Origin: an uncultured Clostridia bacterium | GTDB taxonomy: Bacteria; Bacillota; Clostridia; Christensenellales; DTU072 | Length of the DNA stretch: 64,000 bases | Direction: 5' to 3' | Assembly (NCBI GenBank): GCA_944363505.1 | Contig: CALVUD010000003.1 | Span: 5,783-69,782 of the forward strand | In this document: piece after piece, positions 12,269-50,406 of the stretch | How positions within the stretch are numbered: position 1 is the stretch's first letter | How the letters are laid out: each line of letters opens with the position of its first letter | The notes under the pieces: generated by a model | Databases searched by the model: none | The model's input: the letters and a program-made list of their open reading frames with translations, nothing else | Told to the model about the DNA's origin: nothing | Made by a program: the position numbers and the translations under genes

Positions 12269-12353
12269 TCCTTTGTATTGTTCTGCAAACTATTTAAACA
12301 ATTCAGTCGTGTTTACTAAGCTTTTCTCCGTTGTTATTTCTCCGGCATCTCAT

Positions 12354-13157: not shown

Positions 13158-13186
13158 TTGCTATTGTTCGAGGTTTAGAATATAAT
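13158..13186 (+). promoter_or_regulatory. Sigma-70-type promoter for the R-M operon
   Basis: TTGCTA (13158-13163), a 17-nt spacer, then TATAAT (13181-13186), 42 nt upstream of the ATG at 13228. Confidence 0.55.
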
Positions 13187-13189
13187 TTA

Positions 13190-13205
13190 TATAGTATATA
13201 CTATA
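13190..13205. promoter_or_regulatory. Perfect 16-bp palindrome TATAGTATATACTATA (operator candidate)
   Basis: Self-complementary 16-mer located between the -10 box and the RBS of the HTH-fused methylase gene. Confidence 0.5.
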
Positions 13206-13227
13206 CTATATATCTAACGGAGAGACT

Positions 13228-14295: not shown

Positions 14296-14306
14296 AGAGG
14301 AAACAT

Positions 14307-15146: not shown

Positions 15147-15157
15147 GAGTTAAATAA

Positions 15158-16021: not shown

Positions 16022-16022
16022 T

Positions 16023-16766
16023 ATGGCAAAGAAAAATATACCGTTACAGCCCGAAAATTTCGAACTCGAAACAAATACCGTTTGGGCGTTCCCCGATCGC
16101 GGTAAATGGGCTACACACGACGCGAAATATCGCGGAAACTGGTCGCCGTATATTCCGAGAAACGTAATTCTGCGTTATTCGAAAGAGAACGACACTGTTT
16201 TGGATCAGTTCGTTGGTGGCGGCACTACCGCGGTTGAGGCAAAATTAACTAATAGGAATTTTATCGGTGTCGATATTAATCCGAACGCACTTGAAATAAC
16301 AAAAAGCAAATTGAATTTCGAGTGTGAATTTAATCCGACGATAAATATTATGCAAGGCGATGCGCGTAATCTTTCGACTATTGCCGATAATTCGATAGAC
16401 CTTATTTGCACGCATCCGCCTTATGCGGATATTATTCATTACAGCGAAAATATTGACGGCGATATGTCACTTATGTCGATGAAAGATTTTTTGTTTGAAA
16501 TCGGCAAAGTCGCGGGCGAATGTTATCGGGTATTGAAGAAAGATAAGTTTTGTGCTATTCTTATGGGAGACACACGGAAAAAAGGTATGGTTCAGCCGCT
16601 TGCTTTTGATACTATGCGTGTCTTTGAGCTCGCCGGTTTCAAAACGAAAGAAATAATAATCAAGGAACAGCACAATTGCAAAGCAACTGGATATTGGAAA
16701 ACAAACAGCATAAAGTTTAATTTCCTTTTGCTCGCCCACGAGTATTTGTTCGTGTTAAAAAAATAA
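16023..16766 (+). CDS. Amino (N6-A/N4-C) DNA methyltransferase with motif order FxGxG before PPY
   Basis: VLDQFVGGGTTAVEA is followed by CTHPPYADII. The gene starts 1 nt after the endonuclease stop. Confidence 0.7.
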   Translation: MAKKNIPLQPENFELETNTVWAFPDRGKWATHDAKYRGNWSPYIPRNVILRYSKENDTVLDQFVGGGTTAVEAKLTNRNFIGVDINPNALEITKSKLNFECEFNPTINIMQGDARNLSTIADNSIDLICTHPPYADIIHYSENIDGDMSLMSMKDFLFEIGKVAGECYRVLKKDKFCAILMGDTRKKGMVQPLAFDTMRVFELAGFKTKEIIIKEQHNCKATGYWKTNSIKFNFLLLAHEYLFVLKK

Positions 16767-16790
16767 CTTGAATTCTAGCCGAGGTAGGAT

Positions 16791-17690
16791 ATGGATGAGT
16801 TTATATATGATGACAATAAAATAAAACTATACAACGAGGATTGTTTAAAAATATTCCCCCTGATAGATAGTGAATCTATTGATTTAATAATAACATCACC
16901 GCCTTATTGCATGGGAAAAGAATATGAGAATACATCTGATGATATAAATTCCTTTCTTTCCCTGAATAAAAAAGTAATTTATGAGGCCCAAAGAGTTTTA
17001 AAAAAAGGGGGGAATCTTTGCTGGCAGATTGGTTTTCATGTAAAAGATTCTGTCATCGTTCCTCTGGATTGCTTAATTTATCAAATTGTTGAAGAAATAA
17101 ATAAAACGCTATCTGATGATTGTAAATTGTACTTGCACAATAGAATAGTATGGTCATTTGGTCATGGATTAAATGCTGAAAAAAGGCTAAGTGGTCGCTA
17201 TGAGACAATTATGTGGTACACAAAAGGTAAAGAGTATTTGTTTAATTTAGATGCTATTAGAGTACCGCAAAAATATCCAGGGAAAAAGTATTCAAAAGGG
17301 AAAAAAGTTGGACAATATAGTGGGAACCCTTTAGGGAAAAACCCATCTGATGTATGGGATATTCCAAATGTAAAAGCTAATCATATAGAGAAAACAGCAC
17401 ATCCGTGTCAATTCCCGATTGCAATTCCGCAAAGATTAATTAAGGCCCTATCTAGACAGGGCGACATAATCATGGATCCTTTTTTAGGAAGTGGAACAAC
17501 AGCCGTTGCGTGTATAATGGAGAAAAGAAATTTCATAGGGTGTGAATTAAAAAAAGATTATATTTCTATCGCAAAGCAACGCATTACAGATGCTATACAA
17601 GGAAAGGTTAAGTGTCGTCCAGATGTACCAGTCATAGAGCCCGACAAAAATCAAAAAGTTGCACAAAAGCCGGAGGAATTCAAATGGTAA
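16791..17690 (+). CDS. Beta-class amino DNA methyltransferase (N6-A or N4-C)
   Basis: ITSPPYCMGKEY lies near the N-terminus and DPFLGSGTTAVAC near the C-terminus. Confidence 0.8.
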   Translation: MDEFIYDDNKIKLYNEDCLKIFPLIDSESIDLIITSPPYCMGKEYENTSDDINSFLSLNKKVIYEAQRVLKKGGNLCWQIGFHVKDSVIVPLDCLIYQIVEEINKTLSDDCKLYLHNRIVWSFGHGLNAEKRLSGRYETIMWYTKGKEYLFNLDAIRVPQKYPGKKYSKGKKVGQYSGNPLGKNPSDVWDIPNVKANHIEKTAHPCQFPIAIPQRLIKALSRQGDIIMDPFLGSGTTAVACIMEKRNFIGCELKKDYISIAKQRITDAIQGKVKCRPDVPVIEPDKNQKVAQKPEEFKW

Positions 17691-19495
17691 AGAAACTAAT
17701 GAAGAATAAAAAAAAGAGATTATCAAAAGAGCAAATCGTTGAGAATAAAAACCGTGCCAGTTTTAAAAAACAAATAAAAGATATTTTTATACTTTCGGGC
17801 TTTAATCCTTTGAATGTTCAAGGTTTTCAGTTTGAACTGGGGAATCGCCCCAATGAACTAGATCACTGCTTTATTTACGAGAACATTATAATAATTTGCG
17901 AAGATACGATTAAGTTTCTGAAGAAAAAAGATTTAGCAGCGACTAACGGAGAATCCTTTAATCGAAATCACAAATTAGAAAAAAATGAATCTGCTCATAT
18001 AATTCTAACCAATAAAGAACGTTTTATTGGTATCTTGAAACAGAAATTTCCTGATGTTGAACAAATAAAAATTTATAATCCAAAGGAGTTCAGGATTTTT
18101 TATTTGTACTTTGAATACGGGAAGCAACATATTAGTTCTGAAGATGAAAATAGGTACAGTTATTTAAAATTTATAGATTATCCGACGCTTAATTACTTGT
18201 CGATTATGTCAAAAAGTTTAAAGGCGTCATTTAAGTATGAGATTTTTAGATTTCTAAATCTTTCCAGAACGGACATCGGAAAACCAGACCCGTTTGGGAA
18301 TAATATTAAGCCGATCATTTCTTCGATTATATATCCAGATTCTGTTACGGGATTTAATAATGGTATCAGGATGGTTTCCTTTATGATGAGACCTTCCGAT
18401 TTGATTGAGAATAGTTTTGTGCTTCGTAAGGATGGATGGGAACAAAATGTTGATTTATATCAAAGATTAATAACCCCCAAAAGGATAAAATCTATTAGAG
18501 ATTTTGTTGTAAATAACAAAACTACTTTTTTGAATAATATTATTGTAACATTACCGCCCAATGTAGAATTTTACAAGAAAGAAAACGGCAAGAGATTGCC
18601 CGTTAATATTGATGACATTACAAATTATAGTAACAATGTTGAGATATGCATTCCTGTAGATTTTAACTCAATGGCTATTATTGATGGTCAACATAGAGTT
18701 TATGCGTATTATCAAGATAACGAGAATAATATTTCGGAACAAGTTATTGCTAAGTTAAGAAATGAGTTAAATTTGCTTGTGACTGGAATTATCTATCCAA
18801 ACAACGATAAATACGATGACCCTTTGGAAAGAAGAAAATTTGAGAGTAATTTATTTGTCTCAATTAATAAAAACGCAAAACCTGTTGATGCTGATACATT
18901 GATTCAAGTGCAAGCAATTATGAATCCCACTTCTGGTGAAGCAATATCAAGAAAAGTTATAGAACGTTTAAATAAGGAAGAACCCTTTACAAATATGTTT
19001 CAGTTATCTAAAGTTGAAACAGCACCAATTAAAATCGCATCAATTATTCAATACGCACTATCGAGTCTATTAGTAGCAAAAAATAACGATAACTCGCTAT
19101 ATCGTTACTGGTTGGTAAAAAACAAGTTGAATGATGATTATGTATTGAGAAGCAGTGAAGACATTAAAGACTATATAAATTATTGCGTAAAATATCTAAA
19201 AGAATACTTTAAAGCGATAAAGAGTAAATTTAACAGTTTCTGGAATAAAGATTCGAAGCTATTAATGGTTATTTCATTGAATGCTTTTATAATTGCATTT
19301 CGAGAGACATTAAAAATGTGTAATGGGCCTCAAAAGTATAATTTTTATTCTAGTGTATTTAAAGATTGGGATTTTAGTTTTGAGAACTCTAAAGATAAAA
19401 ACAAACAATTCCCATATGCAGGTGCGCAGTATAGTAAGTTTGCAAAAAATGAAATAATCCCATTGTTTGTTCGAAATTATAATACGACTAAATAG
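17684..19495 (+). CDS. DGQHR-domain (DndB/DpdB-like, ParB fold) protein with unassigned N- and C-terminal regions
   Basis: IIDGQHRVYAYY is encoded at 18683-18697 and QRLITPKRIKSIRDFV lies upstream of it. ATG at 17684 follows GGAGGA (17672-17677) and overlaps the methylase stop by 7 nt. Confidence 0.7.
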   Translation: MVKKLMKNKKKRLSKEQIVENKNRASFKKQIKDIFILSGFNPLNVQGFQFELGNRPNELDHCFIYENIIIICEDTIKFLKKKDLAATNGESFNRNHKLEKNESAHIILTNKERFIGILKQKFPDVEQIKIYNPKEFRIFYLYFEYGKQHISSEDENRYSYLKFIDYPTLNYLSIMSKSLKASFKYEIFRFLNLSRTDIGKPDPFGNNIKPIISSIIYPDSVTGFNNGIRMVSFMMRPSDLIENSFVLRKDGWEQNVDLYQRLITPKRIKSIRDFVVNNKTTFLNNIIVTLPPNVEFYKKENGKRLPVNIDDITNYSNNVEICIPVDFNSMAIIDGQHRVYAYYQDNENNISEQVIAKLRNELNLLVTGIIYPNNDKYDDPLERRKFESNLFVSINKNAKPVDADTLIQVQAIMNPTSGEAISRKVIERLNKEEPFTNMFQLSKVETAPIKIASIIQYALSSLLVAKNNDNSLYRYWLVKNKLNDDYVLRSSEDIKDYINYCVKYLKEYFKAIKSKFNSFWNKDSKLLMVISLNAFIIAFRETLKMCNGPQKYNFYSSVFKDWDFSFENSKDKNKQFPYAGAQYSKFAKNEIIPLFVRNYNTTK

Positions 19496-19524
19496 TAATT
19501 AAAATTCGTTTTACATTGTCACTT

Positions 19525-25391: not shown

Positions 25392-25685
25392 TCAATTTTC
25401 GCGAACTTTAAATGCGGGCATTTCTTTGCCGCGGAATTCGGCGTCGAGAATACCCAGCTGCATTTTAATTATACGCCGCATTTCGATAGCGGGTGCAAGA
25501 CAGTATTTTTCAAAAAGCTCTCTGTCCGCGTCTGCGGCGCTGTTCCAGTGCGGGAAATACAGCTTGACAAACGCCGTAGCGATACGTTTTACCGCAGCGG
25601 TGTCCCTTGTATCCGAGCCCTCGGGAACACACAATAATTCGTTCACTACGCCGCCTGCGGTCATATCGTTGCGCAATTCGTGCAT
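25392..25685 (-). CDS. 97-codon ORF that continues the FtsK-like gene in another frame (frameshifted tail or overlapping small gene)
   Basis: Protein-like sequence starts at MHELRNDMTAGGVVNELL (ATG 25685) and overlaps the upstream stop (25661-25663) by 25 nt. The longer track ORF's N-terminus is Arg/Gln-rich noise. Confidence 0.45.
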   Translation of the reverse strand: MHELRNDMTAGGVVNELLCVPEGSDTRDTAAVKRIATAFVKLYFPHWNSAADADRELFEKYCLAPAIEMRRIIKMQLGILDAEFRGKEMPAFKVREN

Positions 25686-28600
25686 ACTATGTTGACTGCG
25701 TTGTTGTACCGCGCCGTCTGCATTATGCGCAGGATGTCGTCGTTGCGGACGCCTTTCAGAATGATCTTGTTGGAACATGCCGCCATCTCGCGCTCTATCG
25801 GAGAAACGCTGGACGGCGTATCCACGCTGAATACGATGTGAATACCGGTATCGGCACCTTGCGAGAACACTTCCTTGAACATCGCGGCGAACGTCATCTT
25901 GTCGCCGCTCGAGCCGCCGAGACCCATTGTCAGTCCGCCGAAAAGCGAACTCGGCGCGGGCGCTGTCGCGGGAGCATCGGAAATGTCGTATTGGCGCATA
26001 TTATCCTTTAAAAGATCGATAAACGCCTGTAATTTATGTATAAATACGAATATCGGCGGGTGTTCGTCCTGGATCCGGTCGGAACGCTCGCGTTGAGTAC
26101 GCAGCAGCTTTACGAACAGATTCGCCAGGTCCCTCTTGCTGTTGACTTCGGTACAGTATTTTGTGAAAGCTTCGGGCAAAACATAATAAAGGTCGTTGGG
26201 GTTATCCTTGGAGACTATCTCGCCGTTGACGTAATAAACCGATCCCTTAAATTCGGTCATATCCTTGTTGGTAATGTTTTCCATTATCACGGAAAGCATG
26301 GAGTAACCCATTATATCTCTGATCTCCTCGATGGAAGAACCCGCCATCCAAAGGTTGGATTGCGAACCCCTGAGTCCGATATTTACGCCGAAAGGTTTGC
26401 CCGTGATATAGTTTTGTCCGATCTCGAGAAAATACGTTCCGCTGGACTTTGACTTGAGAGATTTCGCAGAAACGGCCTCCGTGTATTTCGTTTGTCCGAC
26501 ATTGGGTTGGGGTACGTTGTCGTTGCCGACGACGAACAAAGGCTCTCTTTCTTTCCAGCCGTCGGTTACCTCCGCCCATTTTTTGTTTATCGCCTCGACA
26601 AACTTCAGTCGTCTTTGCGAATTCTCGGCATAAGCCACGCGGAATTCCACACAGTCGTCTTTTCCCCTGTTGGACATTTCTTTTATCAACGCCAGACCTT
26701 TTTCGATCTTATTCAAAGAACTGACCCTTTCCGGCTTTATATCGAGATCGGACGCGTCGTCGAGATTGTTCAGTTTCAAACAGATCCTGGTGCCTATCTG
26801 ACCTATGACTTCCCTGATGCCCGCGACCTTCGGCACGTTCTGAGATACCCAAAGGAAACTTATGCCGAACGCTCTGCCTTTCTTGAAAAGCTCGGACATT
26901 ATCTTTATCGCCTCCTGTCCCAGGCTTTCGTTCCGCTCGAACAGTTCCTGGACCTCGTCTATTATGACGAGCAACCTGGGCAGTTTGATCTTTGCTTTTT
27001 CGTTATATCTGATGATATCCTCGGCAAAATTTCTGCGGAAAAGATTTTCGCGTCTGTGCAGCTCTTTCAGGATATTGCTAAGGATAGCCAGTCCGTCGTC
27101 GGGGTCCGAAGTCAATCCCGTCAATTTTATGTGCGGCACCTGCTTTGCAAGCTCGCCGCCGCCTTCGTAAAACTTGAATTCGACGCCGCCTTTAAAGTCG
27201 ACCAAGTATATGTTAAGTTCGTCCGGACTGTATTTGTAACACGCCGAAAGCACTATCGCGTGGAGCAGATTGGATTTACCTGAACCCGTCCCGCCGATCG
27301 CGACCGCGTGTGCGCTGGCGCCGGACGTTGACAATTCGAAACTCAGGAACTCGTTACCGCGCATACCTATCGGCAGAGCGATGGATTCGTCCGCAGGTTT
27401 TATGCCCTTTGCGGACTTTTGCTGTTTGTCGATATACTCCAAGACGCGCGCGAATTGAATATTCTTTTGTTTGACTTTTTCGGAATTGTCCGCAAGTATC
27501 TTCAAGTACGACTCCATTTTCGTTGCGTTTATATTGTCGGCGGTCTTGAAGGTGTTGTCTACGTTCATTTCGGCGACGATCTTGTTTCCCGAGGCGTTGA
27601 ATACTATGCTGTGCCTTTTCGCCACAGCGATAAAGTTGTCGTAGGCTTCTCCTATTCCCCTGCCGACCGAAGCTTTGTTGCTGAATAATACGGTGAATAT
27701 CCCGGCCCTGTTCCCCTGATCCATTATTTTTGCCAAACGGTTGCAGGTGTCGGGATTAAATCCTTTCGGGAAATTGAGTATCGCCATTACCGTTATGCTT
27801 TCGGGGTTCGTTACGGATAGTTCGTTGTACTCGAAAATATTGTTTGCGGCGTTATAACGGATCTTATTGTCATATATGGTGTGCATCGTTTTTTCCATAT
27901 CTTTGACGACGCCGTCCAGATCCCTTTCGTCACGGACGATGCCGCCCCCGACCAGACCGCCGAGATCCTTTAGCTTTGCGTATCTCGAAAAATCGCCCCT
28001 GTCGTCGACGTCGACAAGCAGAAAACTTATTCTTTTTGCCGGGAAACTCATCAAATAAGAAATAAGTATTTCGTGTATAAAATTAAAAATAATGGAGGAG
28101 TATTCGCCGGGTTCGTTGATATTGACTAAAATGTTGCCGCAGTTTTTGAGATCCAGCACCAGCGGGCACGACATCTTGCCGTCCTTGACGAACTCGGAAA
28201 GCACCGGGCTCTTTCCGAAATATTTTTTATGCTCGGGCTTTGTGTCGACGGTAACATCCATATCTCCGAGCGTTATATATTCTTTGAAATCGAAAGAGCC
28301 GTTATCCACGTCGACCGTGCCCTTTTGTCCGGATTCATATATCTGTCGGAAATTGGCTTTGTTGATTATATCGTCCTCTTGCCCGAGGATCTCGCGCTCT
28401 TTGCTTTCGTAATAAGCGTTTAGTCTGCCTTTTTCTTTTTCTATCAACGCCTTGCGACGCTCGTCCACGAATTTGGCGTATTCGGCTTCGCTATAGTATC
28501 TTCTGACCGCATTCTCCATCGAAGACAGTCTTTGGATCAGCCCTAACGCCATGGCGATGGCTTGTTTTGTTTTTTCGTGTTGCGGATAACCGTTCGCGTC

Positions 28601-29134
28601 TTCGGAAATCAGAAGATCGTAATTATAGACCGAAAATTCTTGTTTTTCCCCGACCTCTTCGATGGTGTTCGCACCTCTGCAAAACACTACTGTCTCGGGC
28701 TTTCCTTTGATACCTTCGTCCTTTGTCTTAATTTCCAAAGGAGGGTTATATTCGTCATAGTCGAAATCGTTAAGTTCAGAAACCACTTTGTTCAGCGCTT
28801 CTACACCGTCGATAATGTTCAGTCTGTACCCCTCTATGTCGTCGGAAAGAACTTCTCCGACGTATTTCGGTTTGATCTTTTTGTATTCCTCGTTGCCGAT
28901 TTCGTCGGAGCGTAGCTGAACGATAAGCTTTTCGAGACGGTCTTTTATGTCCGTAACTTCGCTCTTTACGTAACGGTTAAGTTTCGCGCGGTAATCGGCT
29001 TTCAACTTATCCGAAATTTTTTCTGCACCCTTTGTTTTATCGGAAAGGCTCGAATCGACGTTTTTTATGACCGAATCCAGTTTAACGAATTTCTTTTGGC
29101 ACTGATCGATGATGCTAATAACCTTGTTAATCAT
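25661..29134 (-). CDS. Soluble multi-domain FtsK/SpoIIIE-family ATPase (coiled-coil N-terminus, degenerate-active-degenerate P-loop domains)
   Basis: Walker A GGTGSGKS (27275-27295), Walker B LLVIIDEVQE, no hydrophobic TM segments seen. Start MINKVISII at 29134 follows AGGGG. Confidence 0.7.
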   Translation of the reverse strand: MINKVISIIDQCQKKFVKLDSVIKNVDSSLSDKTKGAEKISDKLKADYRAKLNRYVKSEVTDIKDRLEKLIVQLRSDEIGNEEYKKIKPKYVGEVLSDDIEGYRLNIIDGVEALNKVVSELNDFDYDEYNPPLEIKTKDEGIKGKPETVVFCRGANTIEEVGEKQEFSVYNYDLLISEDANGYPQHEKTKQAIAMALGLIQRLSSMENAVRRYYSEAEYAKFVDERRKALIEKEKGRLNAYYESKEREILGQEDDIINKANFRQIYESGQKGTVDVDNGSFDFKEYITLGDMDVTVDTKPEHKKYFGKSPVLSEFVKDGKMSCPLVLDLKNCGNILVNINEPGEYSSIIFNFIHEILISYLMSFPAKRISFLLVDVDDRGDFSRYAKLKDLGGLVGGGIVRDERDLDGVVKDMEKTMHTIYDNKIRYNAANNIFEYNELSVTNPESITVMAILNFPKGFNPDTCNRLAKIMDQGNRAGIFTVLFSNKASVGRGIGEAYDNFIAVAKRHSIVFNASGNKIVAEMNVDNTFKTADNINATKMESYLKILADNSEKVKQKNIQFARVLEYIDKQQKSAKGIKPADESIALPIGMRGNEFLSFELSTSGASAHAVAIGGTGSGKSNLLHAIVLSACYKYSPDELNIYLVDFKGGVEFKFYEGGGELAKQVPHIKLTGLTSDPDDGLAILSNILKELHRRENLFRRNFAEDIIRYNEKAKIKLPRLLVIIDEVQELFERNESLGQEAIKIMSELFKKGRAFGISFLWVSQNVPKVAGIREVIGQIGTRICLKLNNLDDASDLDIKPERVSSLNKIEKGLALIKEMSNRGKDDCVEFRVAYAENSQRRLKFVEAINKKWAEVTDGWKEREPLFVVGNDNVPQPNVGQTKYTEAVSAKSLKSKSSGTYFLEIGQNYITGKPFGVNIGLRGSQSNLWMAGSSIEEIRDIMGYSMLSVIMENITNKDMTEFKGSVYYVNGEIVSKDNPNDLYYVLPEAFTKYCTEVNSKRDLANLFVKLLRTQRERSDRIQDEHPPIFVFIHKLQAFIDLLKDNMRQYDISDAPATAPAPSSLFGGLTMGLGGSSGDKMTFAAMFKEVFSQGADTGIHIVFSVDTPSSVSPIEREMAACSNKIILKGVRNDDILRIMQTARYNNAVNIVCTNCATI

Positions 29135-29358
29135 TTTACCGCCCCTGCTTTTATTCACATATACGGGGCAAAAATCAATCTTCCCCGCAAAAAGTGCGTT
29201 ATAATTATATATTCGCCGTGTCAAACGTTTTTTCTATTCTTTTATATGATTTCTGCTATACGCTTCCCGCAACATTGATATTTTACTTCGGTCCGTGTTA
29301 TGATTTAAAAAACATCCCTTTTCTTTGAGGAGGCATCCGAAGGAGAGTTTTTTATAAT

Positions 29359-42639: not shown

Positions 42640-42764
42640 ATCTTTTATTTTAATCTAACGCTATCAAATATGTCAATATCGCTTTTTTTCAAAAACTTAC
42701 TTTTTTCTTCTATTTATTCCGTTTGTTTTTACTTTAAAAAACTCTTCTCAAAACAATGTTGTCA

Positions 42765-42805
42765 TGTTGATATCTTTTCAACGTCGTTTACATTTTTTAT
42801 CAACA
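42765..42805. promoter_or_regulatory. DnaA-box-like pair downstream of dnaA (TGTTGATAT / TTATCAACA) in an AT-rich 330-bp spacer
   Basis: 9-mers at 42765-42773 (reverse orientation) and 42797-42805, each one mismatch from TTATCCACA. Confidence 0.45.
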
Positions 42806-42967
42806 GTAATTATGCTTCATTTTTTGTTTTTTATTTATAAAACAATCGTTTTTATATATGAAAAACAACTTATAAACATATCTCTTTTCCTTATTATTAT
42901 AATTATTCCTTATTTAAAAAAAGAGAAGTAAATAAGCTTACTTCCCTTTTTCGTATCGTTTTAAAGT

Positions 42968-44341
42968 TTAATTCAACATGCTTTTTATGTCTTTTATGGC
43001 GCGTATGGTATCGGGATCGTCTTTTGCCAAAGACGCTATCTTGTCACGAGAATGGATGATCGTCGAATAATCGCGTCCGCCGAACATCTGCCCTATCGTC
43101 ACCAAAGGAAGCGAAAGCATTTCGGTTATGATGTAAATGGCTATCATTCTGGCTTCGGCAATGTCTTTCGTGCGCTTTTTGCTGATGATATCCGACTGAG
43201 ATATATTGAAATAACTGCATGTTGCCTGGATTATGTCCGACGAGTCCACGCCGTGTTTTTTCTGTACCGTGTTTTTAAGAGCTTCCTTTGCCGTGTCTAT
43301 GTCGGGATAAGGCAGACCTTTCAACTTTGCATAGAATATGACCTTTGCAAGACTTCCTTCCAGTTCGCGGATGTTGGAATCTATTCTTTCGGCAAGATAA
43401 TATACGACGTCGTCGTTGACGGCAATCTTTTCAAGAATCATCTTTTTACGGATTATGGCTATCCGCATTTCCAGATTCGGGGCACCGATATCCGCAATTA
43501 AGCCGCCTTCGAATCTGGAGCGCAGACGGTCTTCGAGAGTTGAGATCTCCGACGGAGGTCTGTCCGACGTCAGTACTATCTGTTTTCCGTTCTGATAAAG
43601 GTCGTTGAAAATATGGAAAACAACTTCCTGCAGTCCGGTACGCTTTTGCAAGAACTGTACGTCGTCCAGCATCAGCATGTCCACCGTGCGATACTTTTCT
43701 CGGAATGCATGCAGATTGAAAACTCCCTTTTCGTTGCGGTTATTGGAAATTGCCTCTACATAGTCGTTAGTCAGCTTTTCCGTGGGAGTATAAAGGACTT
43801 TCAGATGAGGCATGTGCTCGTTGACGTAGTTTCCTATTGAATGAAGAAGGTGCGTCTTTCCGAGTCCTACGCCGCCGTATAAAAACAAAGGATTGAACGA
43901 TAGATATGTGTTTTCGGCTACTCCTGGTGATTTTGCTACGGACTGAGCGGCGTGAAAAGCCAGTTTGTTTGATTCACCGACGACAAAGTTATCGAAAGTG
44001 TATCTGGAAATAAACTGGGATTCCTTTTCGTTATAATTGACGGTGTTGTCGGTATATTCTTCGATTTCTTTGTAATAGAAATCCTTTTCTTCGTCCACTA
44101 TAATTCTTACGTCGGTAAAAATGCTGCCTATAGACTCCAGAGCGCTCTGAATGGCGCTTTTGTAAGAACGATTAACGACGTGTTTGTTGTTAACCGAAGG
44201 TGCAAGCAATATCAAAGTATTGTCCTTTACGCAAAGAGGAGTCAAAGAAGCGATCCAAACAGAATAAGATATGGCGTTCACACCCTCTATTCCGACTATT
44301 TTTTGGCAAGCATCCTGCCAGATTCTCTTGATGTCGATCAT
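42968..44341 (-). CDS. dnaA: Chromosomal replication initiator DnaA
   Basis: LFLYGGVGLGKTHLL, LLDDVQFL, SNIRELEG, and the C-terminal DNA-binding region YSTIIHSRDKI. I chose the start MIDIKRIWQ at 44341. Confidence 0.9.
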   Translation of the reverse strand: MIDIKRIWQDACQKIVGIEGVNAISYSVWIASLTPLCVKDNTLILLAPSVNNKHVVNRSYKSAIQSALESIGSIFTDVRIIVDEEKDFYYKEIEEYTDNTVNYNEKESQFISRYTFDNFVVGESNKLAFHAAQSVAKSPGVAENTYLSFNPLFLYGGVGLGKTHLLHSIGNYVNEHMPHLKVLYTPTEKLTNDYVEAISNNRNEKGVFNLHAFREKYRTVDMLMLDDVQFLQKRTGLQEVVFHIFNDLYQNGKQIVLTSDRPPSEISTLEDRLRSRFEGGLIADIGAPNLEMRIAIIRKKMILEKIAVNDDVVYYLAERIDSNIRELEGSLAKVIFYAKLKGLPYPDIDTAKEALKNTVQKKHGVDSSDIIQATCSYFNISQSDIISKKRTKDIAEARMIAIYIITEMLSLPLVTIGQMFGGRDYSTIIHSRDKIASLAKDDPDTIRAIKDIKSMLN

Positions 44342-44733
44342 AAAGCGATTATAACACATACCGAAAAAGTTTTCAACAATAGCTAAATCTAAATAAATAT
44401 ATTTAAAAATAAAGTTATTTAAGCGAAAAGGCAAGCCGAACAAAAGCAGGCGATTTTAAATTCTAAATTCGGTAATGGAATAAGGGTAATATGCCGGCAT
44501 AAAAAAAAGACAGTCATCCGATAATTAGTTGACGAAATTAAAATAAATCGGGAGGCGAAGAATTTTCGGAAAGAAAATCAATTAACTAATATAGAATAAA
44601 CCGAAAATGAATTAAATTAAAAATTAAAAAACATAAAAACAAAACCGTCGGAGGAAATCATTTGAAAAAGGAAATCATATAAAACGCTTTTAAAAGAGAA
44701 TAATATTCTCTTTTAAATGACAAAACAAATCAT

Positions 44734-44777
44734 ATATCAACATTTTAAAGCGTACTTATCAACAATTATATTGATAA
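44734..44777. promoter_or_regulatory. DnaA-box-like cluster upstream of dnaA (putative oriC/dnaA promoter region)
   Basis: ATATCAACA at 44734-44742, TTATCAACA at 44756-44764, and an inverted TTGATAA at 44771-44777, inside a very AT-rich kb. Confidence 0.45.
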
Positions 44778-45213
44778 CTCGCCGTTTAAACGATCCGTTT
44801 AAGTTATCAGAAAGCTAATTAAAAAGTACATATTAAAAAATAATTATAATGCAGAGCATAATTGTACAATATTTATTAGATTAAAAAATGCGTCTTTAGT
44901 CTTTATGATTATCCCATCCCCTCTTTGAAATAAAATACACTCGGCTTAAAAACGTTTATAAAATAATCGGAAAAAATATAGATACATTATTTAGTATAGA
45001 GTTATATTAACTGAATAAATCAACACAATCGTATCGGCAAAATATTATATAATACAAAATCATTTGTTGAGTTAAAATCGAATTAGAAAAAAATAAAATT
45101 GTATATAAATAACAATATATTAAAAAATTAAAGCGGAATAATGATATAATACTCTAAAATATTTAAAAAACGGACCGAAATGACGAACCATTATAGATTT
45201 ATAAACGAACGAT

Positions 45214-45229
45214 TGTTTCACGTTAAACA
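45214..45229. other. parS-like site 1: TGTTTCACGTTAAACA
   Basis: One mismatch to the Firmicutes parS consensus TGTTNCACGTGAAACA. Confidence 0.55.
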
Positions 45230-46246
45230 AAACGTATTATATTCAATATAATCCATATCCCGCTTCCATTAACAGAATATCGTTATATGGCGGATTGCTT
45301 TAACGAAAATCATTCAGTTAATTATGCGGTTTTGAAAATTAAATAAATGAATAAAACTGAAGCGAGGTAGTTTATAATCGTAAAAGTTCAATCAATTTTA
45401 TACAAGAGAGAACGATATTTTATCCGAAAAGTACCGGACTACTAATTTTTAACGAATGTAAGATATTATTTTCATGACTTATATCATTATTTGCATAAAA
45501 CCGTTTTTAGATTTACTTTTTTCTCGGCAATTATAAAATCGAATATAATTCAACTATGAAACAGCTTATCTTTGAGCTTGTTTACTTCTTTTCCGTTAAG
45601 CCGTCAGAATCGAGCAGAAATAGCGTTGCATATACAAAATAAACTTTAAATTGAGGTTTCGATAAATATTTATTTGTGATTTTATTAAAGATTTAAAGGT
45701 ATAATCGGGATCCTTTCTATTGTTTCCGACGACGATCATGCTTCGGTCGGTATATAATTACATTTAATTAATTTATCGTATTTTATAGAATTTCCGAGCA
45801 TGGATTCGATTAATGCTGATTATATGTTGATTGAAGTAATCGTCGACGTTTTGTTTTTGAAATGTTATCCGGTAATTGTTAAACGAGCAGTACAAGAATA
45901 AAATTCAGAATATAAATATCGTTTTATCATGTTTAGCGCCCGAATAAAAATCCAACACCCATTATCTGAGCTTTGTTTTTAAGAAGGCAGACGTCTTTTA
46001 AACGGCAGAAACGCGTATGTTTTTTTCCGAACGCCGAAATATTTTATGCTTCTACCGACTAATTACAGTGGACTTAACGACACAAAGATATTATTTAATA
46101 AAACAAGAAGAACTGTCTTTTACCAAGAGTTGTGTATAACGATAAACCGTATTCATCACATTATATATTTTGCAAGACGAAAAATCAATGGTATAGGCAT
46201 AATAACATAAGAAAATTCCTGCTTTTTAAATCTCGTTTACGCAGAA

Positions 46247-46262
46247 TTGTTTAACGTGGAAC
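46247..46262. other. parS-like site 2: TGTTTAACGTGGAACA
   Basis: One mismatch to the palindromic parS consensus; identical to site 5. Confidence 0.55.
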
Positions 46263-47151
46263 AATCGGCTGTAGCCGTGATACGGAGTCGGATTTTCACA
46301 ATCTAATATAGAAAAACGTAGCGAAGTGTTTCAAAACGCCGCCTTGAATCACGCGCTTATTCGGTTTTATATATCAAGGCGAAATACATAGGAATCACCT
46401 CCACTTTCATATATGTTATATATGTTATACGCCGGTTATTTGATTCCGACGTAAATCTTTTTGAACCAACAACATTTCGGGTACTTTCGTAAAGAGCGAA
46501 GGGGAGCAAATCCGACATGCTCCTCACTTTAACTTTGATAGAACCCAAATTAGGCGTCGATTTTTTCCCGATTGCCGGTCAGCTTTCGTGCGTTTAAAGA
46601 TAAAAAATCGGGGAAAAATTAATATACTTTAAAGTATTGCGTATATTGTACATACGTGGTAAGGCTCCAAACGCTTCTACCGCTCCCCGCATATAAATTA
46701 AGATTGAAATTAATGATCGAAACGTGCTTTCAAACCCTATGGGTGTGCGGTATTTATACGACCGACCGCTGCCCGAGCTTTTAACAAATGCGCATACAAA
46801 ATTAATTGTAAAAACGATTTATATCAGAAGGTCGGGAATATAATATAGTTTTTTGAGAATCCAAGCACGATACACCTGCTTTAAGAATTAAATCGGGTAA
46901 TACGAATAATACCGTATGAGTTACGTTTTACCGCCACCTCGAACCGACGATACACAACCTTATTATTAGGACTTTATAGTCCGAACATAGGAAAGAATGC
47001 CATTGCGAGAATCCATGCATATACGTATTATATCTTTCTGGCTGATTCCGATTTGTTTCGGTCGGGATCGGTTTGCGGCTTGTCCTTCATAAAGTCTTAA
47101 ACCAAAGATAAAAATTCTATCGGCAGAATGTTACGACGCGCAACGGTAAAA

Positions 47152-47167
47152 TGTTTCACGTTGAACA
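47152..47167. other. parS-like site 3: TGTTTCACGTTGAACA
   Basis: One mismatch; identical to site 4 within a shared 20-mer. Confidence 0.55.
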
Positions 47168-47982
47168 ATCGAACTCGGATACGTTGATTTTTTAAATATT
47201 TAATAACATTTTTATTAAAATGAGCCTGATGCAGAGATATAATGCGCCCGCACACACAATGAATCCATACGCGAGTAACGAGCTTTTTATAGCAATATTT
47301 CGGCGTCATACTTAAAGAGGCATCAAAGTTTCCGTATATTATGTCGCGCGGCAAGATACCGGTCAAAGCTGTTTTCACTTTAGAAAGTTTAAATCGGACT
47401 GGTAATAGATAATAGGCCGGGTTGTCCGATGCGAAGATTTAAAAATTGATCGCGCCGTATGTTTGAATGCAATCGACGAGGCAAGGCCGATACTGCGAGC
47501 GGTAATTTGATTTTTTACGGTAGCGATGTTTATGCGCCAATAAATAAAATCGCTACTGCCGAAAGTATACAATTATGTGAACGACGGGACTATCCGAGTA
47601 TTTAATTTAGCTTTGACCCTGAAAAGTTTCTTTTTGTTTTCGCGCAACGGGAAAAGCTTCTCTTGGCGTGGTCCGATTTTGAATAAAGCGATGTCGTTAA
47701 ATATCTTTTCGAAGTCGATAACGGTTTATTCTGAAACGGAACGTTTCTTTATTATGGAGCTGTCGCAAAACAAATTCATGCAGAAATTGCGAGCGTGCAC
47801 GAGCGTCGAACAGCCGTCAGGATTTCGTTTTTAAACAATATTTATCGTTTTGGCTGTAATCATACCATACGGACAAGACAACGGCGAATTTTGAATTGAG
47901 GATCAAATAACGTTATAATCTTAGCGCGAAAAACAGGACATTATCGGCAGAAAGCAAAAGACCAACCGAAACAAAACGGAAA

Positions 47983-47998
47983 TGTTTCACGTTGAACA
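47983..47998. other. parS-like site 4: TGTTTCACGTTGAACA
   Basis: One mismatch; identical to site 3. Confidence 0.55.
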
Positions 47999-48536
47999 AA
48001 TTTGTCCGAGCATACCGCGGTACGCATATTCAGATATTCGGAGAGAAAATAAATTATTTCAAACGCGGCATATGCCGAGCATAAAACAGATCAAAATGCA
48101 TGGAGAAAGCCATATTATTCCGCAGCGTTTTGGCGGCATGCGCCTGAACCGATGCCGTTTAGTTTTTAACATTCCTCCGACAGTGGCACCCCTCCGAGGT
48201 CGCGGCCCGCTTGGTCCGTCAAATCAAGCTTTTGAAGAAGTAAAATATAAAAGCTTTTATACGATGGCGGTATTGCAGAAACGAAAGTTATTCGTATTAC
48301 CAAAATAGTTTCCCGGAAAGAATCCGACACCCGGGAGCATTTCTCGAAAGAGTGCCCCATTATTGTTTGCGTCGAAATAAATAAATCTAAACAGTTAAAG
48401 TTAAAAACGGCAAATCGAAAAAATAATTCGTAGAAAAAAGCGGAGGAAGAAACGCACGAAAGCTCAGGCTGTCATACAGCCGAATTTGACAATAAGCGCA
48501 AGACGTTAAGGCAATATTATCGTAATCATATATGAT

Positions 48537-48552
48537 TGTTTAACGTGGAACA
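48537..48552. other. parS-like site 5: TGTTTAACGTGGAACA
   Basis: One mismatch; identical to site 2. Confidence 0.55.
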
Positions 48553-49154
48553 TCGGCGGCGATTTTCTCAATTTATATTGAAGTATAATCAAAAACATGA
48601 TATTCGGTTTAAATATTACGATTAATGTAGTCTAAGCGATTGTTCCGAACGGAACGAAGATGCTAAATAAATATAGAGAAATAGCGCAACAAGATCGTCA
48701 GACGGGCTATTAATCGGTTTCATACAACAAGCGATCCGGAAGTCGCAGCGGAAAAGCCGAGATAAAAGGCGTTAGAATCGATTCGGCAAATTGACATTGA
48801 CGGAAACGGCAAACTAATATTCAAGTTAAACAATAAACGCAAACAATAAAAGATCGAGTATAGCCAAATATTAATCCTATGCTAATAATACATCGCCCAT
48901 GTAAATATTGAATAAATAAATTCCCATATTTATAATGTTTGACGCAGCGAACGTCGGCGCAGATCAAGCGGACGAGCAGTCAAAGGATAAAGGCAAAGCG
49001 TGCGACCCAAACGCTTAAATCGTAAAAAGCAATGCCGAAACGTCTTTTAAATAATAAAACATAGGTAACGCAAAGTCTTTGCGTAACGCATCGAAAACAG
49101 GGATAAAAAGGTGAAAAACCGCACAATCATCGCGATATAGAGACGCTCCACGAA

Positions 49155-49170
49155 TGTTCCATGTGAAACA
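49155..49170. other. parS-like site 6: TGTTCCATGTGAAACA
   Basis: One mismatch; identical to site 7. Confidence 0.55.
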
Positions 49171-49309
49171 ATGCAATAATTCGCAAATTTTTCAGCTTTC
49201 GATCGGGCGGATCTCCGCGGCGTGAAGTTTTAGTTTTACCCTGAATCTCGATATATTTAATTTATCGAATCCTGAAATAATTAATACGGAGCTGCGCCTC
49301 AAGCGGTAT

Positions 49310-49325
49310 TGTTCCATGTGAAACA
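49310..49325. other. parS-like site 7: TGTTCCATGTGAAACA
   Basis: One mismatch; identical to site 6. Confidence 0.55.
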
Positions 49326-49697
49326 TACGTGTCGGACAAACGCGTTATTCTGTTTGGATATTTATTTTAACTGTATAAAACTACAAAATATACAAACAAA
49401 TGAATAATTATAACTATCGGGCAAATTCGTAAGCTTTATATATTTCATGGATAAGCGCGCGCGATCAGAAGGCTTGTTTTGCGGTGCCGAGCGGGTCTAA
49501 CGGCTTGCAGAACGAGTCGAAATTACGGTTAATGGGCGTTTTTTTATGCTGTTTCACGCGCGCTTCTCCTTGAAAAACCTTAAATGCGATTTTGGTCAGA
49601 AAATTAAGATTTACGCGCGAAAACGCTGATAAAATGATACGTTTTTAAGGCTATTTTATTCCCGAAAAAACTTTTTCCGAAAAATTCGGCGCAAAAA

Positions 49698-49713
49698 TGT
49701 TCCACGGGGAACG
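49698..49713. other. parS-like site 8 (weaker): TGTTCCACGGGGAACG
   Basis: Two mismatches to the consensus. Confidence 0.35.
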
Positions 49714-49986
49714 CGAATTTGCCGTGAATTTCTTTTGTTTTTCCGTTGTCTTTGTGGCGAATTTTACAAATCTTTTAACAGGCTTTATTTTACATCTTTT
49801 TAATATAAATTACAAGTGCTTTTCGGTTTTTCTTTGAGATTTTATTGTATATTGGCTTATACGATGATTGAGGTTAAACTTTTAATGTTTTGACATCGTA
49901 TTCTTTTTTCATTGTATATTCGTTGACAAACTTGTTTGTTTTGGCTAATATATACCTAGGAAAACTAGGTAAAGACTATTCGCCGT

Positions 49987-50406
49987 ATGGACATCAATAC
50001 TTTGGGGCAATTTAAAAAGGGGGCTATGGAACTTATAGTGCTGTGCGTTATCGAAAAGAGCGAGAAGTACGGCTATGAAATAGTTTCTACTCTCAACGAG
50101 TATTCTTCCGTTCTCGGAGATGCCAGGGAGGGGACCGTTTACCCTCTTTTGTACAGGCTGTGCGTCGGCGGGTATATCGCTGTCCGCACGGATTCGAGAC
50201 AGGGACGCGGTAATCCGAAAAAATACTATTCTTTGACCGACAAAGGCAAAGAGGCTCTTGACGAAATGAAGAGATTCTGGTTCGAATTTTCCGATTGCGT
50301 CGATTCAATTTTGTCTTTAAAACGCGAGAGCGTTGTCGTTCAGAGCGAGTCGTTCGATGACGATTTTGTCTCCGTAATAGACGGACGGAAGTCTTTAGAG
50401 GCATAG
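49987..50406 (+). CDS. PadR-family transcriptional regulator
   Basis: ELIVLCVIEKSEKYGYEI...EGTVYPLLYRL...KKYYSLTDKGKEAL. Confidence 0.85.
   Translation: MDINTLGQFKKGAMELIVLCVIEKSEKYGYEIVSTLNEYSSVLGDAREGTVYPLLYRLCVGGYIAVRTDSRQGRGNPKKYYSLTDKGKEALDEMKRFWFEFSDCVDSILSLKRESVVVQSESFDDDFVSVIDGRKSLEA

What the first reader, a model, noticed from the sequence alone, without database searches (positions are those of the whole stretch)
44444..49986. A 5.5-kb ORF-free stretch upstream of dnaA carries an array of eight parS-like 16-mers
**No coding signal.** Between the dnaA start (44341) and padR (49987) the six-frame track shows only a few 60-108-aa ORFs with non-protein-like sequence. Only the first ~0.8 kb is extreme AT. 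The rest has mixed composition, so it is not simply an AT-rich spacer.

**parS-like sites.** There are eight 16-mers within 1-2 mismatches of the Firmicutes parS consensus TGTTNCACGTGAAACA. They start at 45214, 46247, 47152, 47983, 48537, 49155, 49310 and 49698. A half-site lies at 49550-49558, and a related palindrome (TGTTCCGAACGGAACG) at 48641-48656.

**Why it is unusual.** Chromosomal parS sites are normally scattered inside genes around the origin, classically within parB/spo0J. A dense array in a multi-kb gene desert beside dnaA looks like a dedicated centromere or ParB-loading platform, or it hides large non-coding RNAs. No parA or parB lies in the window.
Basis: partly seen in the sequence, partly recalled or inferred. 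Interest (0 to 1): 0.7.

Follow-up and report, generated by a model that had tools for sequence, protein, structure and literature searches.

The report
Gene-free parS centromere array beside oriC
A 5.5-kb stretch with no genes next to dnaA holds the origin's DnaA-box module and eight ParB-type centromere sites set in freely drifting spacer DNA; relatives in the same group of gut Clostridia share this layout, which is an unusual gene-free version of a known kind of bacterial centromere.

Summary
The palindromic parS consensus finds exactly eight sites in the 64-kb window, all inside 45214-49713, against 0.14 expected. One coordinate is off by one (46248, not 46247), and the eighth site is weak.

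The gap is not an assembly artefact: ten independent conspecific assemblies carry the same 5.62-5.65 kb between padR and dnaA. It has no coding signal:
- ORF lengths match shuffled sequence.
- No stop-codon reassignment opens longer frames.
- There are no Pfam, Rfam, plasmid or phage hits.
- Polymorphisms show no codon-position bias.

Its base composition sits at mutational equilibrium, so it is old non-coding DNA rather than recent pseudogenes.

Relatives (Candidatus Stercoripulliclostridium and Christensenella-like MAGs) have dnaA-dnaN, then an inverted repeat with three DnaA boxes, then 4-9 parS sites in a 1.5-5.7 kb non-coding gap, then an M20 peptidase gene. The window keeps this module, rearranged so that it abuts the dnaA start. 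Between species only the parS 16-mers and the DnaA-box module remain alignable. Within the species the parS sites are about threefold less polymorphic than the spacer (P=0.007).

Best reading: an oriC-adjacent ParB-loading centromere. ParB binding is untested, and no parB gene lies in the window. It is a new variant of a known kind.

The parts
42640..42967 (.). Spacer downstream of dnaA with degenerate DnaA boxes (for example TTATCAACA at 42797). It is homologous to the relatives' dnaA-dnaN spacer, which carries three boxes.
   Evidence: alignment A3
42968..44341 (-). dnaA (457 aa from the ATG at 44341)
   Evidence: Pfam Bac_DnaA 5e-61 and Bac_DnaA_C. The identical protein is found in 75 blocks of public assemblies.
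44348..44376 (-). Predicted dnaA promoter: TTGAAA, 17 nt, TG-extended TATAAT. The -10 element ends 6 nt before the ATG, which implies a leaderless mRNA.
   Evidence: The same layout is seen in 16 relatives.
44342..45200 (.). Extremely AT-rich dnaA-proximal segment (GC 0.14-0.32 per 100 nt), a candidate unwinding region of oriC
   Evidence: (GC profile)
44688..44717 (.). Conserved inverted repeat AAAAGAGAAT-loop-ATTCTCTTTT. In relatives it lies just downstream of dnaN, at the start of the parS gap.
   Evidence: (I24). Within the species the loop is polymorphic and the arms are conserved.
44733..44780 (.). Remnant of the clade's DnaA-box triplet: ATATCAACA at 44733, TTATCAACA at 44756, and TTATCAATA on the opposite strand at 44769
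   Evidence: alignment A2: T97 T98 T100 C101 A103 C104 A105 are invariant across 10 genomes
45214..45229 (.). parS-like site 1, TGTTTCACGTTAAACA (1 mismatch)
   Evidence: Invariant in 11 conspecific sequences.
46248..46263 (.). parS-like site 2, TGTTTAACGTGGAACA (1 mismatch)
   Evidence: Invariant in 11 conspecific sequences.
47152..47167 (.). parS-like site 3, TGTTTCACGTTGAACA (1 mismatch)
   Evidence: Invariant in 11 conspecific sequences.
47983..47998 (.). parS-like site 4, TGTTTCACGTTGAACA (1 mismatch). It varies in some strains.
   Evidence: Three segregating positions.
48537..48552 (.). parS-like site 5, TGTTTAACGTGGAACA (1 mismatch)
   Evidence: One segregating position.
49155..49170 (.). 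parS-like site 6, TGTTCCATGTGAAACA (1 mismatch)
   Evidence: Invariant in 11 conspecific sequences.
49310..49325 (.). parS-like site 7, TGTTCCATGTGAAACA (1 mismatch)
   Evidence: Invariant in 11 conspecific sequences.
49698..49713 (.). Weak parS-like site 8, TGTTCCACGGGGAACG (2 mismatches to the palindromic consensus, 3 to the asymmetric one). It is also a weak terminator-like hairpin on the minus strand.
   Evidence: Invariant within the species.
45230..49986 (.). Non-coding spacer DNA between and beyond the sites. Its sequence evolves neutrally, its composition is at equilibrium, and its length is stable within the species.

Best explanation
The 5.5-kb gap is the organism's origin-centromere module.

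**Origin end.** The dnaA-proximal 0.8 kb is the AT-rich part of oriC. It carries a conserved inverted repeat and a degenerate DnaA-box cluster, and a second box cluster lies just downstream of dnaA.

**Centromere.** The remaining 4.7 kb is a chromosomal centromere of seven good and one weak Firmicutes-type parS sites, spaced 155-1034 bp apart.

**Proposed mechanism (inferred from established ParB biology, not shown here):**
1. ParB dimers load at each parS, close as CTP-dependent clamps, and slide about 1-2 kb to either side.
2. The overlapping zones merge into one continuous ParB domain of about 5 kb right next to the origin.
3. That domain is the handle for ParA-driven origin segregation and/or the loading site for SMC condensin.

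**Spacer.** The DNA between sites is free to drift in sequence. It has sat at the species' mutational GC equilibrium for a long time. Because nothing is transcribed across it, the sliding clamps meet no RNA polymerase and no gene is silenced by ParB.

**Shown here:** the sites, their statistical excess, the absence of coding, conservation of the sites but not the spacer, synteny with the DnaA-box module, and reduced polymorphism at the sites.

**Inferred:** ParB binding, clamp spreading, and any advantage of being gene-free.
For: 1. Eight sites against 0.14 expected, all inside the gap. The parS half-site is the top enriched 8-mer.
2. The same module recurs in relatives. Eight relatives (L004, L008, L010, L015, L018, L021, L024, L025) show the order dnaA, dnaN, gap, M20 peptidase. 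All but L021 carry 4-9 parS sites in a 1.5-5.7 kb ORF-free, low-GC gap, and the seven whose gaps were examined (all but L021) carry the inverted repeat with three DnaA boxes at the start of that gap. L001 and L002, the closest relatives, share the window's layout.
3. Across the window plus 80 loci, 152 of 170 parS-like sites lie in the 15% of sequence not covered by an ORF of 120 codons or more.
4. The sites are islands of conservation. Between L004 and L008 (genes about 79% identical), the main things that still align in the gap are the parS 16-mers and the repeat/DnaA-box module; the few other short matches (55 and 71 nt) sit beside parS sites at the M20 end. Between the window and L001/L002 (genes 72-82% identical) the gap is unalignable, yet each keeps 4-8 sites.
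5. Within the species, 4 of 112 parS positions segregate against 10.5% for the whole gap (binomial P=0.007). Gap diversity (pi 0.026) is in the range of four-fold-site diversity of the neighbouring genes (0.006-0.053).
6. More distant relatives that demonstrably encode ParA and ParB have the same kind of non-coding array a few kb away. In L073 a 2.6-kb gap with 5 sites lies 1.8 kb from rsmG-parA-parB.
7. The origin context fits. The cumulative GC-skew minimum falls at 43-45 kb, genes diverge from the gap, and DnaA-box clusters sit on both sides of dnaA.
Against: - No parB, parA or smc gene could be examined for this genome, and none lies in the window or in loci L001-L029.
- Every site in the window, L001 and L002 carries a mismatch, whereas L004 and L008 have mostly perfect sites. 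Affinity could therefore be reduced.
- One site (47983) is disrupted in some strains.
- The DnaA boxes near dnaA are degenerate: one 1-mismatch box in 859 bp.
- Nothing tests whether being gene-free matters. The spacer behaves as neutral DNA, which is equally expected if it is tolerated junk.
- The population test rests on 11 sequences and 112 positions.
Confidence: 0.72

Rival explanations
1. The parS sites are functional, but the gene-free spacer has no role. It is tolerated junk, or a graveyard of genes that were silenced by ParB spreading, decayed long ago, and have not yet been deleted.
For: - The spacer evolves at about the neutral rate: pi 0.026 against a four-fold-site diversity of 0.006-0.053.
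- It is unalignable between species.
- Its composition is at equilibrium.
- Gap length varies 1.5-5.7 kb among relatives with no obvious rule.
Against: - Non-coding gaps of 1.5-5.7 kb persist at the same syntenic place across relatives whose DnaA is only about 51% identical. Bacterial genomes normally delete useless DNA, and the rest of this window is densely coding.
- Within the species the length is stable, 5618-5645 bp in 11 assemblies.
- No protein remnant is detectable.
Confidence: 0.3
2. The stretch encodes one or more long non-coding RNAs or unannotated small proteins, and the 16-mers are incidental or regulatory.
For: - Many promoter-like hexamer pairs: 31 found against 24 +/- 4 expected.
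- Gene callers sporadically call ORFs of 33-108 aa.
Against: - No Rfam family reaches its threshold in the window, and only two chance-level hits (E 0.14 and 0.42) appear in the gap. No tRNA or tmRNA is found.
- Terminator-like sites are at the chance level.
- No sequence is conserved between species outside the parS sites and DnaA boxes.
- The small ORFs gain stops or frameshifts in other strains and show no codon-position bias in polymorphism: 9/15/14, 9/9/7, 14/10/12.
- The 108-aa ORF has no confident homologue outside the species: four hits at 90-97% identity and variable length, plus one weak partial hit (66% identity over 38% of the query, E 3e-6).
Confidence: 0.05
3. The sites are relics or are bound by something other than the chromosomal ParB. 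For example, the lineage may have lost ParB and the sites are decaying, or a ParB paralogue or Noc-like protein or a replication regulator uses them, or they are the partition site of an integrated plasmid or prophage.
For: - No site in the window, L001 or L002 is perfect.
- No parAB lies nearby in the closest relatives.
- dnaA has been separated from dnaN in this sub-lineage, so the region has been rearranged.
Against: - Neutral decay fast enough to make the spacer unalignable would have erased 16-mers, yet 4-8 persist in each of the window, L001 and L002.
- The sites are less polymorphic than the spacer.
- The variant positions (6 and 8 of the half-site) do not move towards the Noc site ATTTCCCGGGAAAT (own knowledge; PMC7383237 concerns that specificity switch).
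- The gap has no similarity to plasmids or phages.
- The module is syntenic with the DnaA-box cluster across the clade.
Confidence: 0.1
4. The gap is an assembly artefact or a recently pseudogenised gene set.
For: - It is unusually long for bacterial non-coding DNA.
- The L001 and L002 contigs end inside their gaps.
Against: - Ten independent assemblies from different samples give the same 5.62-5.65 kb gap at 97-98% identity.
- Rare variants are balanced, GC to AT 208 against AT to GC 182. The implied equilibrium GC is 0.32 against an actual 0.35, so the region is not relaxing from a coding GC of about 0.5.
- There are no protein-level remnants.
Confidence: 0.02

Closest known systems
Caulobacter crescentus origin-proximal parS cluster (ParB occupies about 10 kb; the five strongest sites lie within 5 kb; PMC5815017)
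   Same: Several chromosomal parS sites are packed into about 5 kb near the origin. They are spaced so that ParB spreading zones of about 2 kb overlap into one domain.
   Different: In Caulobacter the sites lie inside essential or high-fitness-cost genes next to parAB. Here the whole 4.7 kb is gene-free, lies directly against the DnaA-box module, and no parAB is nearby.
Corynebacterium glutamicum parS cluster (ten sites in 35 kb, nine intergenic, ChIP-confirmed; PMC7083940)
   Same: The sites are multiple, mostly intergenic, origin-proximal parS of the Bacillus-type 16-mer. Sites with three or more mismatches are not bound, which bears on site 8 here.
   Different: The C. glutamicum sites are spread over 35 kb, interleaved with genes, and lie 73 kb from oriC. 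Here 7-8 sites share one uninterrupted non-coding stretch within 0.5-5 kb of the DnaA boxes.
Bacillus subtilis Spo0J/parS system (ten sites, eight in the origin-proximal 20% of the chromosome; own knowledge, Breier and Grossman 2007 as cited in PMC5815017)
   Same: The consensus is the same, TGTTNCACGTGAAACA. Sites with one mismatch are functional in B. subtilis. ParB there recruits SMC and regulates DnaA through Soj.
   Different: The B. subtilis sites are dispersed over hundreds of kb and mostly lie in coding sequence. There is no dedicated non-coding platform.
Plasmid centromere repeat arrays (for example F sopC and P1 parS; own knowledge)
   Same: They are non-coding arrays of repeated ParB-binding sites that act as a dedicated centromere.
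   Different: Plasmid arrays are short (under about 0.5 kb), tandem and regular. Here the sites are separated by 0.15-1 kb of unrelated, drifting sequence on a chromosome.
Bipartite Firmicutes oriC (DnaA-box clusters flanking dnaA, as in B. subtilis incAB/incC; own knowledge; bipartite origins are discussed in PMC3479198)
   Same: There are two DnaA-box clusters separated by one gene, with AT-rich DNA next to one of them.
   Different: In this clade's common layout the clusters flank dnaN, not dnaA. The window's lineage has rearranged so that they flank dnaA again, and the boxes are mostly the TTATCAACA variant.

Membership tests
Chromosomal ParABS centromere (parS cluster) | 16-bp palindromic sites matching TGTTNCACGTGAAACA with at most 1-2 mismatches | tested here: met
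   Seven sites have 1 mismatch and one has 2-3.
Chromosomal ParABS centromere (parS cluster) | Sites far in excess of chance and concentrated near the replication origin | tested here: met
   Eight sites against 0.14 expected, and none in the other 58 kb. The sites are next to dnaA, at the GC-skew minimum, and beside the DnaA-box module. Genome-wide density could not be tested because only 64 kb is available.
Chromosomal ParABS centromere (parS cluster) | Sites conserved by selection in related genomes | tested here: met
   Arrays occur in the syntenic gap of the seven relatives listed in the report (all those with the dnaA-dnaN-gap-M20 order except L021) and in L001 and L002. The 16-mers are islands in unalignable DNA. 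They are less polymorphic than the spacer (P=0.007).
Chromosomal ParABS centromere (parS cluster) | A cognate ParB (ParB_N plus HTH_ParB) encoded in the same genome | not testable with these tools
   There is no ParB motif in the window or in L001-L029. Only more distant relatives show parA-parB beside dnaA. The rest of this genome is not available.
Chromosomal ParABS centromere (parS cluster) | ParB binds and spreads from the sites in vivo or in vitro | not testable with these tools
   This needs ChIP-seq or biochemistry.
Bacterial oriC | Cluster of DnaA boxes (TTATCCACA-like) next to AT-rich DNA, adjacent to dnaA/dnaN | tested here: inconclusive
   Relatives have a clear triplet of boxes with 0-1 mismatches downstream of dnaN and three more in the dnaA-dnaN spacer. 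The window keeps the homologous positions, but two of the three boxes have 2 mismatches. Boxes are not enriched over chance in the window as a whole. The adjacent 0.8 kb has GC 0.14-0.32.
Bacterial oriC | GC-skew switch and divergence of gene orientation | tested here: met
   The cumulative skew minimum falls at about 43-45 kb. The genes nearest the gap on its left are all on the minus strand and those on its right are mostly on the plus strand.
Non-coding RNA locus | Match to a known RNA family, or conserved sequence or structure between species | tested here: not met
   There are no Rfam hits at gathering scores and only chance-level hits at E up to 1. Nothing outside parS and the DnaA boxes is conserved between species.
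Pseudogene cluster / decayed mobile element | Residual protein or nucleotide similarity to genes, plasmids or phages; composition still relaxing towards equilibrium | tested here: not met
   No Pfam hits. tblastn against 4416 ORFs of relatives gives only chance hits. No plasmid or phage matches. The GC to AT and AT to GC spectrum is balanced.

The most novel reading that the evidence does not exclude
In this group of Clostridia the gene-free spacer is itself selected, for length and transcriptional silence rather than for sequence. On this reading the locus is a bacterial 'regional centromere': a sequence-neutral platform of about 2-6 kb, punctuated by parS loading sites and fused to oriC. It would exist so that ParB-CTP clamps can build an uninterrupted domain, and possibly couple origin firing to segregation. 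Expansion of the platform from about 1.5 kb to about 5.5 kb in the higher-GC Stercoripulliclostridium lineage would then reflect a change in ParB sliding range or SMC loading needs.
Probability: 0.25. Interest if true: 0.75.

Novelty: new variant of a known kind. Interest (0 to 1): 0.5.

Why it matters
- **Natural test of clamp models.** Current models say ParB clamps slide from parS and are hindered by transcription and roadblocks. A centromere that has kept several kb free of genes over long evolutionary time, while only its 16-bp loading sites are conserved, is a natural experiment on that idea. It is also a bacterial parallel to sequence-neutral regional centromeres.
- **Origin annotation.** The result corrects origin annotation for a large, uncultured group of gut Clostridia. 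Their DnaA-box clusters flank dnaN rather than lying upstream of dnaA, and the parS array is a reliable marker of the origin region.
- **Practical use.** Long AT-rich non-coding stretches of this kind break metagenome assemblies (the L001 and L002 contigs end inside them) and can be mistaken for foreign DNA.

Tried and rejected
- **Alternative genetic codes.** Recoding TGA, TAG or TAA does not produce gene-like ORFs.
- **Pfam on the eight longest frames of the gap at E up to 1.** No hits.
- **tblastn of 145 gap peptides against 80 related loci, and of 4416 ORFs from the loci and window against the gap.** Only the nucleotide-level match to the L001 contig end and chance-level hits appeared.
- **blastn of the gap against plasmid and phage collections.** No match.
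- **Rfam at gathering and permissive thresholds, ARAGORN, and Tandem Repeats Finder.** Nothing meaningful.
- **Protein database search with the 108-aa ORF.** It returned four hits at 90-97% identity with variable length and one weak partial hit. The ORFs break in other strains.
- **Canonical DnaA-box enrichment in the window.** Not significant: 21 matches against 11 +/- 4 expected, and only 2 in the gap. The origin call therefore rests on homology to the relatives' box cluster.
- **The 162-nt block at 49551-49712.** It is 97.5% identical to the end of contig L001 and looked like an ultra-conserved element. It carries 15 segregating sites within the species, so it is more likely a chimeric contig end.
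- **k-mer enrichment for a second motif.** Only parS half-sites stand out.
- **The Livny et al. 2007 survey (PMC2168934).** The library does not hold it.
- **ParB in this genome.** No available tool reaches beyond the window for this organism.

Full report
**1. The observation**

The region between dnaA (42968-44341, minus strand; Pfam Bac_DnaA 5e-61) and padR (49987-50406, plus strand) has no ORF longer than 108 aa.
- The longest stop-to-stop frame is 127 codons, against 98 +/- 17 in shuffled copies of the gap.
- Treating TGA, TAG or TAA as sense codons does not reveal hidden genes.
- GC is 0.28-0.40 in the gap against 0.50-0.58 in the flanking genes.

The palindromic parS consensus TGTTNCACGTGNAACA at up to 2 mismatches matches exactly eight times in the whole 64-kb window, against 0.14 expected and a shuffle maximum of 1. 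All eight lie between 45214 and 49713.
- The asymmetric consensus finds seven sites, against 0.06 expected.
- Seven sites carry exactly one mismatch. The eighth (49698) has 2-3 and doubles as a weak hairpin.
- The 'related palindrome' at 48641 is five mismatches away and is not a parS site.
- The parS half-site is the most over-represented 8-mer in the gap, and no second motif emerges.

**2. Artefact or decayed genes?**

The gap is not an assembly artefact. A look-up of the exact DnaA protein returned ten independently assembled contigs of the same species from different samples.
- All show padR, then 5618-5645 bp, then dnaA, at 97-98% identity to the window.
- Gene callers place nothing consistent in the gap.

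No evidence points to decayed genes.
- The frames have no Pfam match even at E up to 1.
- They have no protein-level similarity to any ORF of 80 related loci.
- The gap has no nucleotide similarity to plasmids or phages.
- The 108-aa ORF has four database hits at 90-97% identity with variable length (81-132 aa) and one weak partial hit, so no confident homologue outside the species.
- In the population alignment all five small ORFs examined show no codon-position bias in their polymorphisms, and all but the 63-aa one gain or lose a stop codon or are frameshifted in at least one other strain.
- Rare variants are balanced: 208 GC to AT against 182 AT to GC. The implied equilibrium GC is 0.32 and the actual GC is 0.35. 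The neighbouring genes, at GC 0.44-0.52, show a GC to AT excess.

The gap is therefore old non-coding DNA at compositional equilibrium, not recently inactivated genes.

No RNA family, tRNA or meaningful tandem repeat is present.

**3. Organism and relatives**

DnaA-based retrieval shows that the closest genomes are uncultured Clostridia MAGs and Candidatus Stercoripulliclostridium. NCBI files that genus under Eubacteriales incertae sedis. Beyond them come Christensenella-like MAGs.

A common layout emerges in eight relatives (L004, L008, L010, L015, L018, L021, L024, L025), whose DnaA identity to the window goes down to 51%. In order it is:
1. An oxidoreductase gene, on the opposite strand.
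2. dnaA, then dnaN.
3. Sometimes a Y-family polymerase gene.
4. An inverted repeat (AAAAGAGAAT-loop-ATTCTCTTTT) followed by three DnaA boxes at fixed spacing.
5. An ORF-free, low-GC gap of 1.5-5.7 kb carrying 4-9 parS sites.
6. An M20 peptidase gene on the opposite strand, then radC.

L021 shows this gene order but only two weak parS-like sites and no gap of 1 kb or more at that position; its repeat and boxes were not checked.

Three more boxes sit in the dnaA-dnaN spacer and none lie upstream of dnaA. In this clade the box clusters therefore flank dnaN.

**4. The window's version of the module**

The window, L001 and L002 (94% DnaA identity) have lost the dnaA-dnaN linkage but keep the module.
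- The inverted repeat is at 44688-44717.
- The homologous box positions are at 44733-44780, now degenerate (ATATCAACA, TTATCAACA, TTATCAATA).
- They lie between the dnaA start and the first parS site.
- The spacer downstream of dnaA (42640-42967) is homologous to the dnaA-dnaN spacer and also has degenerate boxes.

The simplest history is an inversion of dnaA-dnaN next to the module, followed by separation of dnaN. This is inference.

Cumulative GC skew reaches its minimum at 43-45 kb, and genes point away from the gap on both sides.

**5. Are the sites selected?**

*Between species.* L004 and L008 have genes about 79% identical. The main alignable pieces of their 4.5-5.7 kb gaps are the repeat/DnaA-box module and the parS 16-mers themselves, plus a few short matches beside parS sites at the M20 end. 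The window's gap is unalignable with those of L001 and L002, although the flanking genes are 72-82% identical and each gap keeps 4-8 sites.

*Across the whole sample.* Across the window and 80 loci, 152 of 170 parS-like sites lie in the 15% of sequence not covered by long ORFs, and most non-coding runs of 1 kb or more carry sites.

*Within the species.* 10.5% of gap positions segregate among 11 sequences, but only 4 of the 112 positions in the seven good sites do (P=0.007). Five sites are invariant.

Gap diversity (pi 0.026) lies within the range of four-fold-site diversity of the neighbouring genes (0.006-0.053). The spacer is therefore close to neutral while the sites are constrained. One site (47983) is damaged in some strains, which fits redundancy among the sites.

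**6. Is ParB the reader of the sites?**

This could not be tested for this genome. No ParB or ParA motif occurs in the window or in the loci of the closest relatives.

More distant members of the same sample do encode ParA and ParB beside dnaA. They carry the same kind of non-coding array a few kb away. In L073 a 2.6-kb gap with five sites lies 1.8 kb from rsmG, parA and parB (Pfam ParB_N, HTH_ParB, ParB_C).

The motif is the standard Firmicutes parS. One-mismatch sites are bound in B. subtilis (own knowledge), whereas sites with three or more mismatches were not bound in C. glutamicum (PMC7083940). The recurrent C-to-A variant at half-site position 6 (TGTTTAAC or TGTTCAAC) appears independently in the window, L002 and L018, which suggests it is tolerated.

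**7. Mechanism proposed**

ParB loads at each site, closes as a CTP clamp and slides. Individual sites give spreading of about 2 kb in Caulobacter (PMC5815017). With sites 0.15-1.0 kb apart, the zones would merge into one domain of about 5-6 kb right beside the origin. That domain would serve ParA-driven segregation and/or SMC loading.

The lack of genes would mean no collisions with RNA polymerase and no silencing of useful genes. This last step is speculative. The data fit equally well if the spacer is merely tolerated.

**8. Comparison with what is known**

Tight origin-proximal parS clusters are established:
- Caulobacter has its five strongest sites within 5 kb, but inside important genes (PMC5815017).
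- C. glutamicum has ten sites in 35 kb, nine intergenic, but interleaved with genes and 73 kb from oriC (PMC7083940).
- P. aeruginosa has four sites near oriC (PMC4368675).

Plasmid centromeres are non-coding arrays, but they are short and tandem.

What differs here is a single uninterrupted multi-kb gene-free stretch, directly joined to the DnaA-box module and conserved as an architecture across a clade while its sequence drifts. Full-text searches found no description of this for Christensenellales-like bacteria. I file it as a new variant of a known kind.

**9. Verdict**

Three points qualify it:
- The gap also contains the oriC DnaA-box module.
- The non-coding-RNA alternative has no support.
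- ParB binding remains to be shown.

Interest is moderate (0.5). It would rise if the gene-free platform proves to be selected for its length or its silence.

Noticed in passing
window 1-19500: A low-GC (0.28-0.39) defence island sits in a genome of about 0.5-0.58 GC. It holds Gabija (GajB 2387-4438 and GajA 4384-6408, PADLOC E 1e-233 and 9e-186), a 1550-aa PDC-S37-type helicase-nuclease (7616-12268), a DpnII-type restriction-modification cluster with three methyltransferases and an Mrr-like nuclease (13228-17690), and a DpdB/DndB-like protein (17612-19495).
   Followed up: partly
window 44341-44376 (minus strand); upstream of dnaA in L001-L025: In the window and in all 16 relatives checked, a TG-extended -10 (TGnTATAAT, or TATACT in three) ends 6-9 nt before the dnaA ATG. 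A -35-like hexamer lies upstream and there is no Shine-Dalgarno sequence. This predicts a leaderless dnaA mRNA conserved across the clade.
   Followed up: partly
L004, L008, L010, L015, L018, L024, L025 (dnaA-dnaN spacer and just downstream of dnaN): The DnaA-box clusters of these relatives flank dnaN: three boxes in the dnaA-dnaN spacer and a fixed triplet after dnaN. None lie upstream of dnaA, which is an unusual origin layout for Firmicutes.
   Followed up: partly
window 42968-44341 in 11 conspecific contigs: dnaA has a four-fold-site diversity of 0.11, which is 2- to 20-fold higher than in the neighbouring genes (0.006-0.053), although all 11 copies encode the identical protein. This may reflect old alleles or recombination at the origin.
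   Followed up: no
L001:1-162 and window 49551-49712: The end of contig L001 is 97.5% identical to the window although genes of the two genomes are only about 80% identical. The block is polymorphic within the species (15 segregating sites), so this is probably a chimeric contig end or a recent transfer rather than an ultra-conserved element.
   Followed up: yes
L004:16328-16354 and L008:17299-17330: A perfect DnaA box lies 2-7 nt from a perfect parS site at the M20-proximal end of the gap, and the pairing is conserved between the two genomes. This hints at a second DnaA-box group on the far side of the array.
   Followed up: no
window 25661-29224 (minus strand): A 1187-aa protein with an FtsK/SpoIIIE-type ATPase domain also shows weak PADLOC similarity to SspH, mad8 and HerA. 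Its function is unclear.
   Followed up: no
L003 and L005: These relatives (DnaA 82-83% identical) have neither dnaN nor any parS-like site within the sequence held around dnaA: 10 kb on each side in L003, and 2.9 kb upstream plus 10 kb downstream in L005. The origin region has therefore been rearranged repeatedly in this genus.
   Followed up: no
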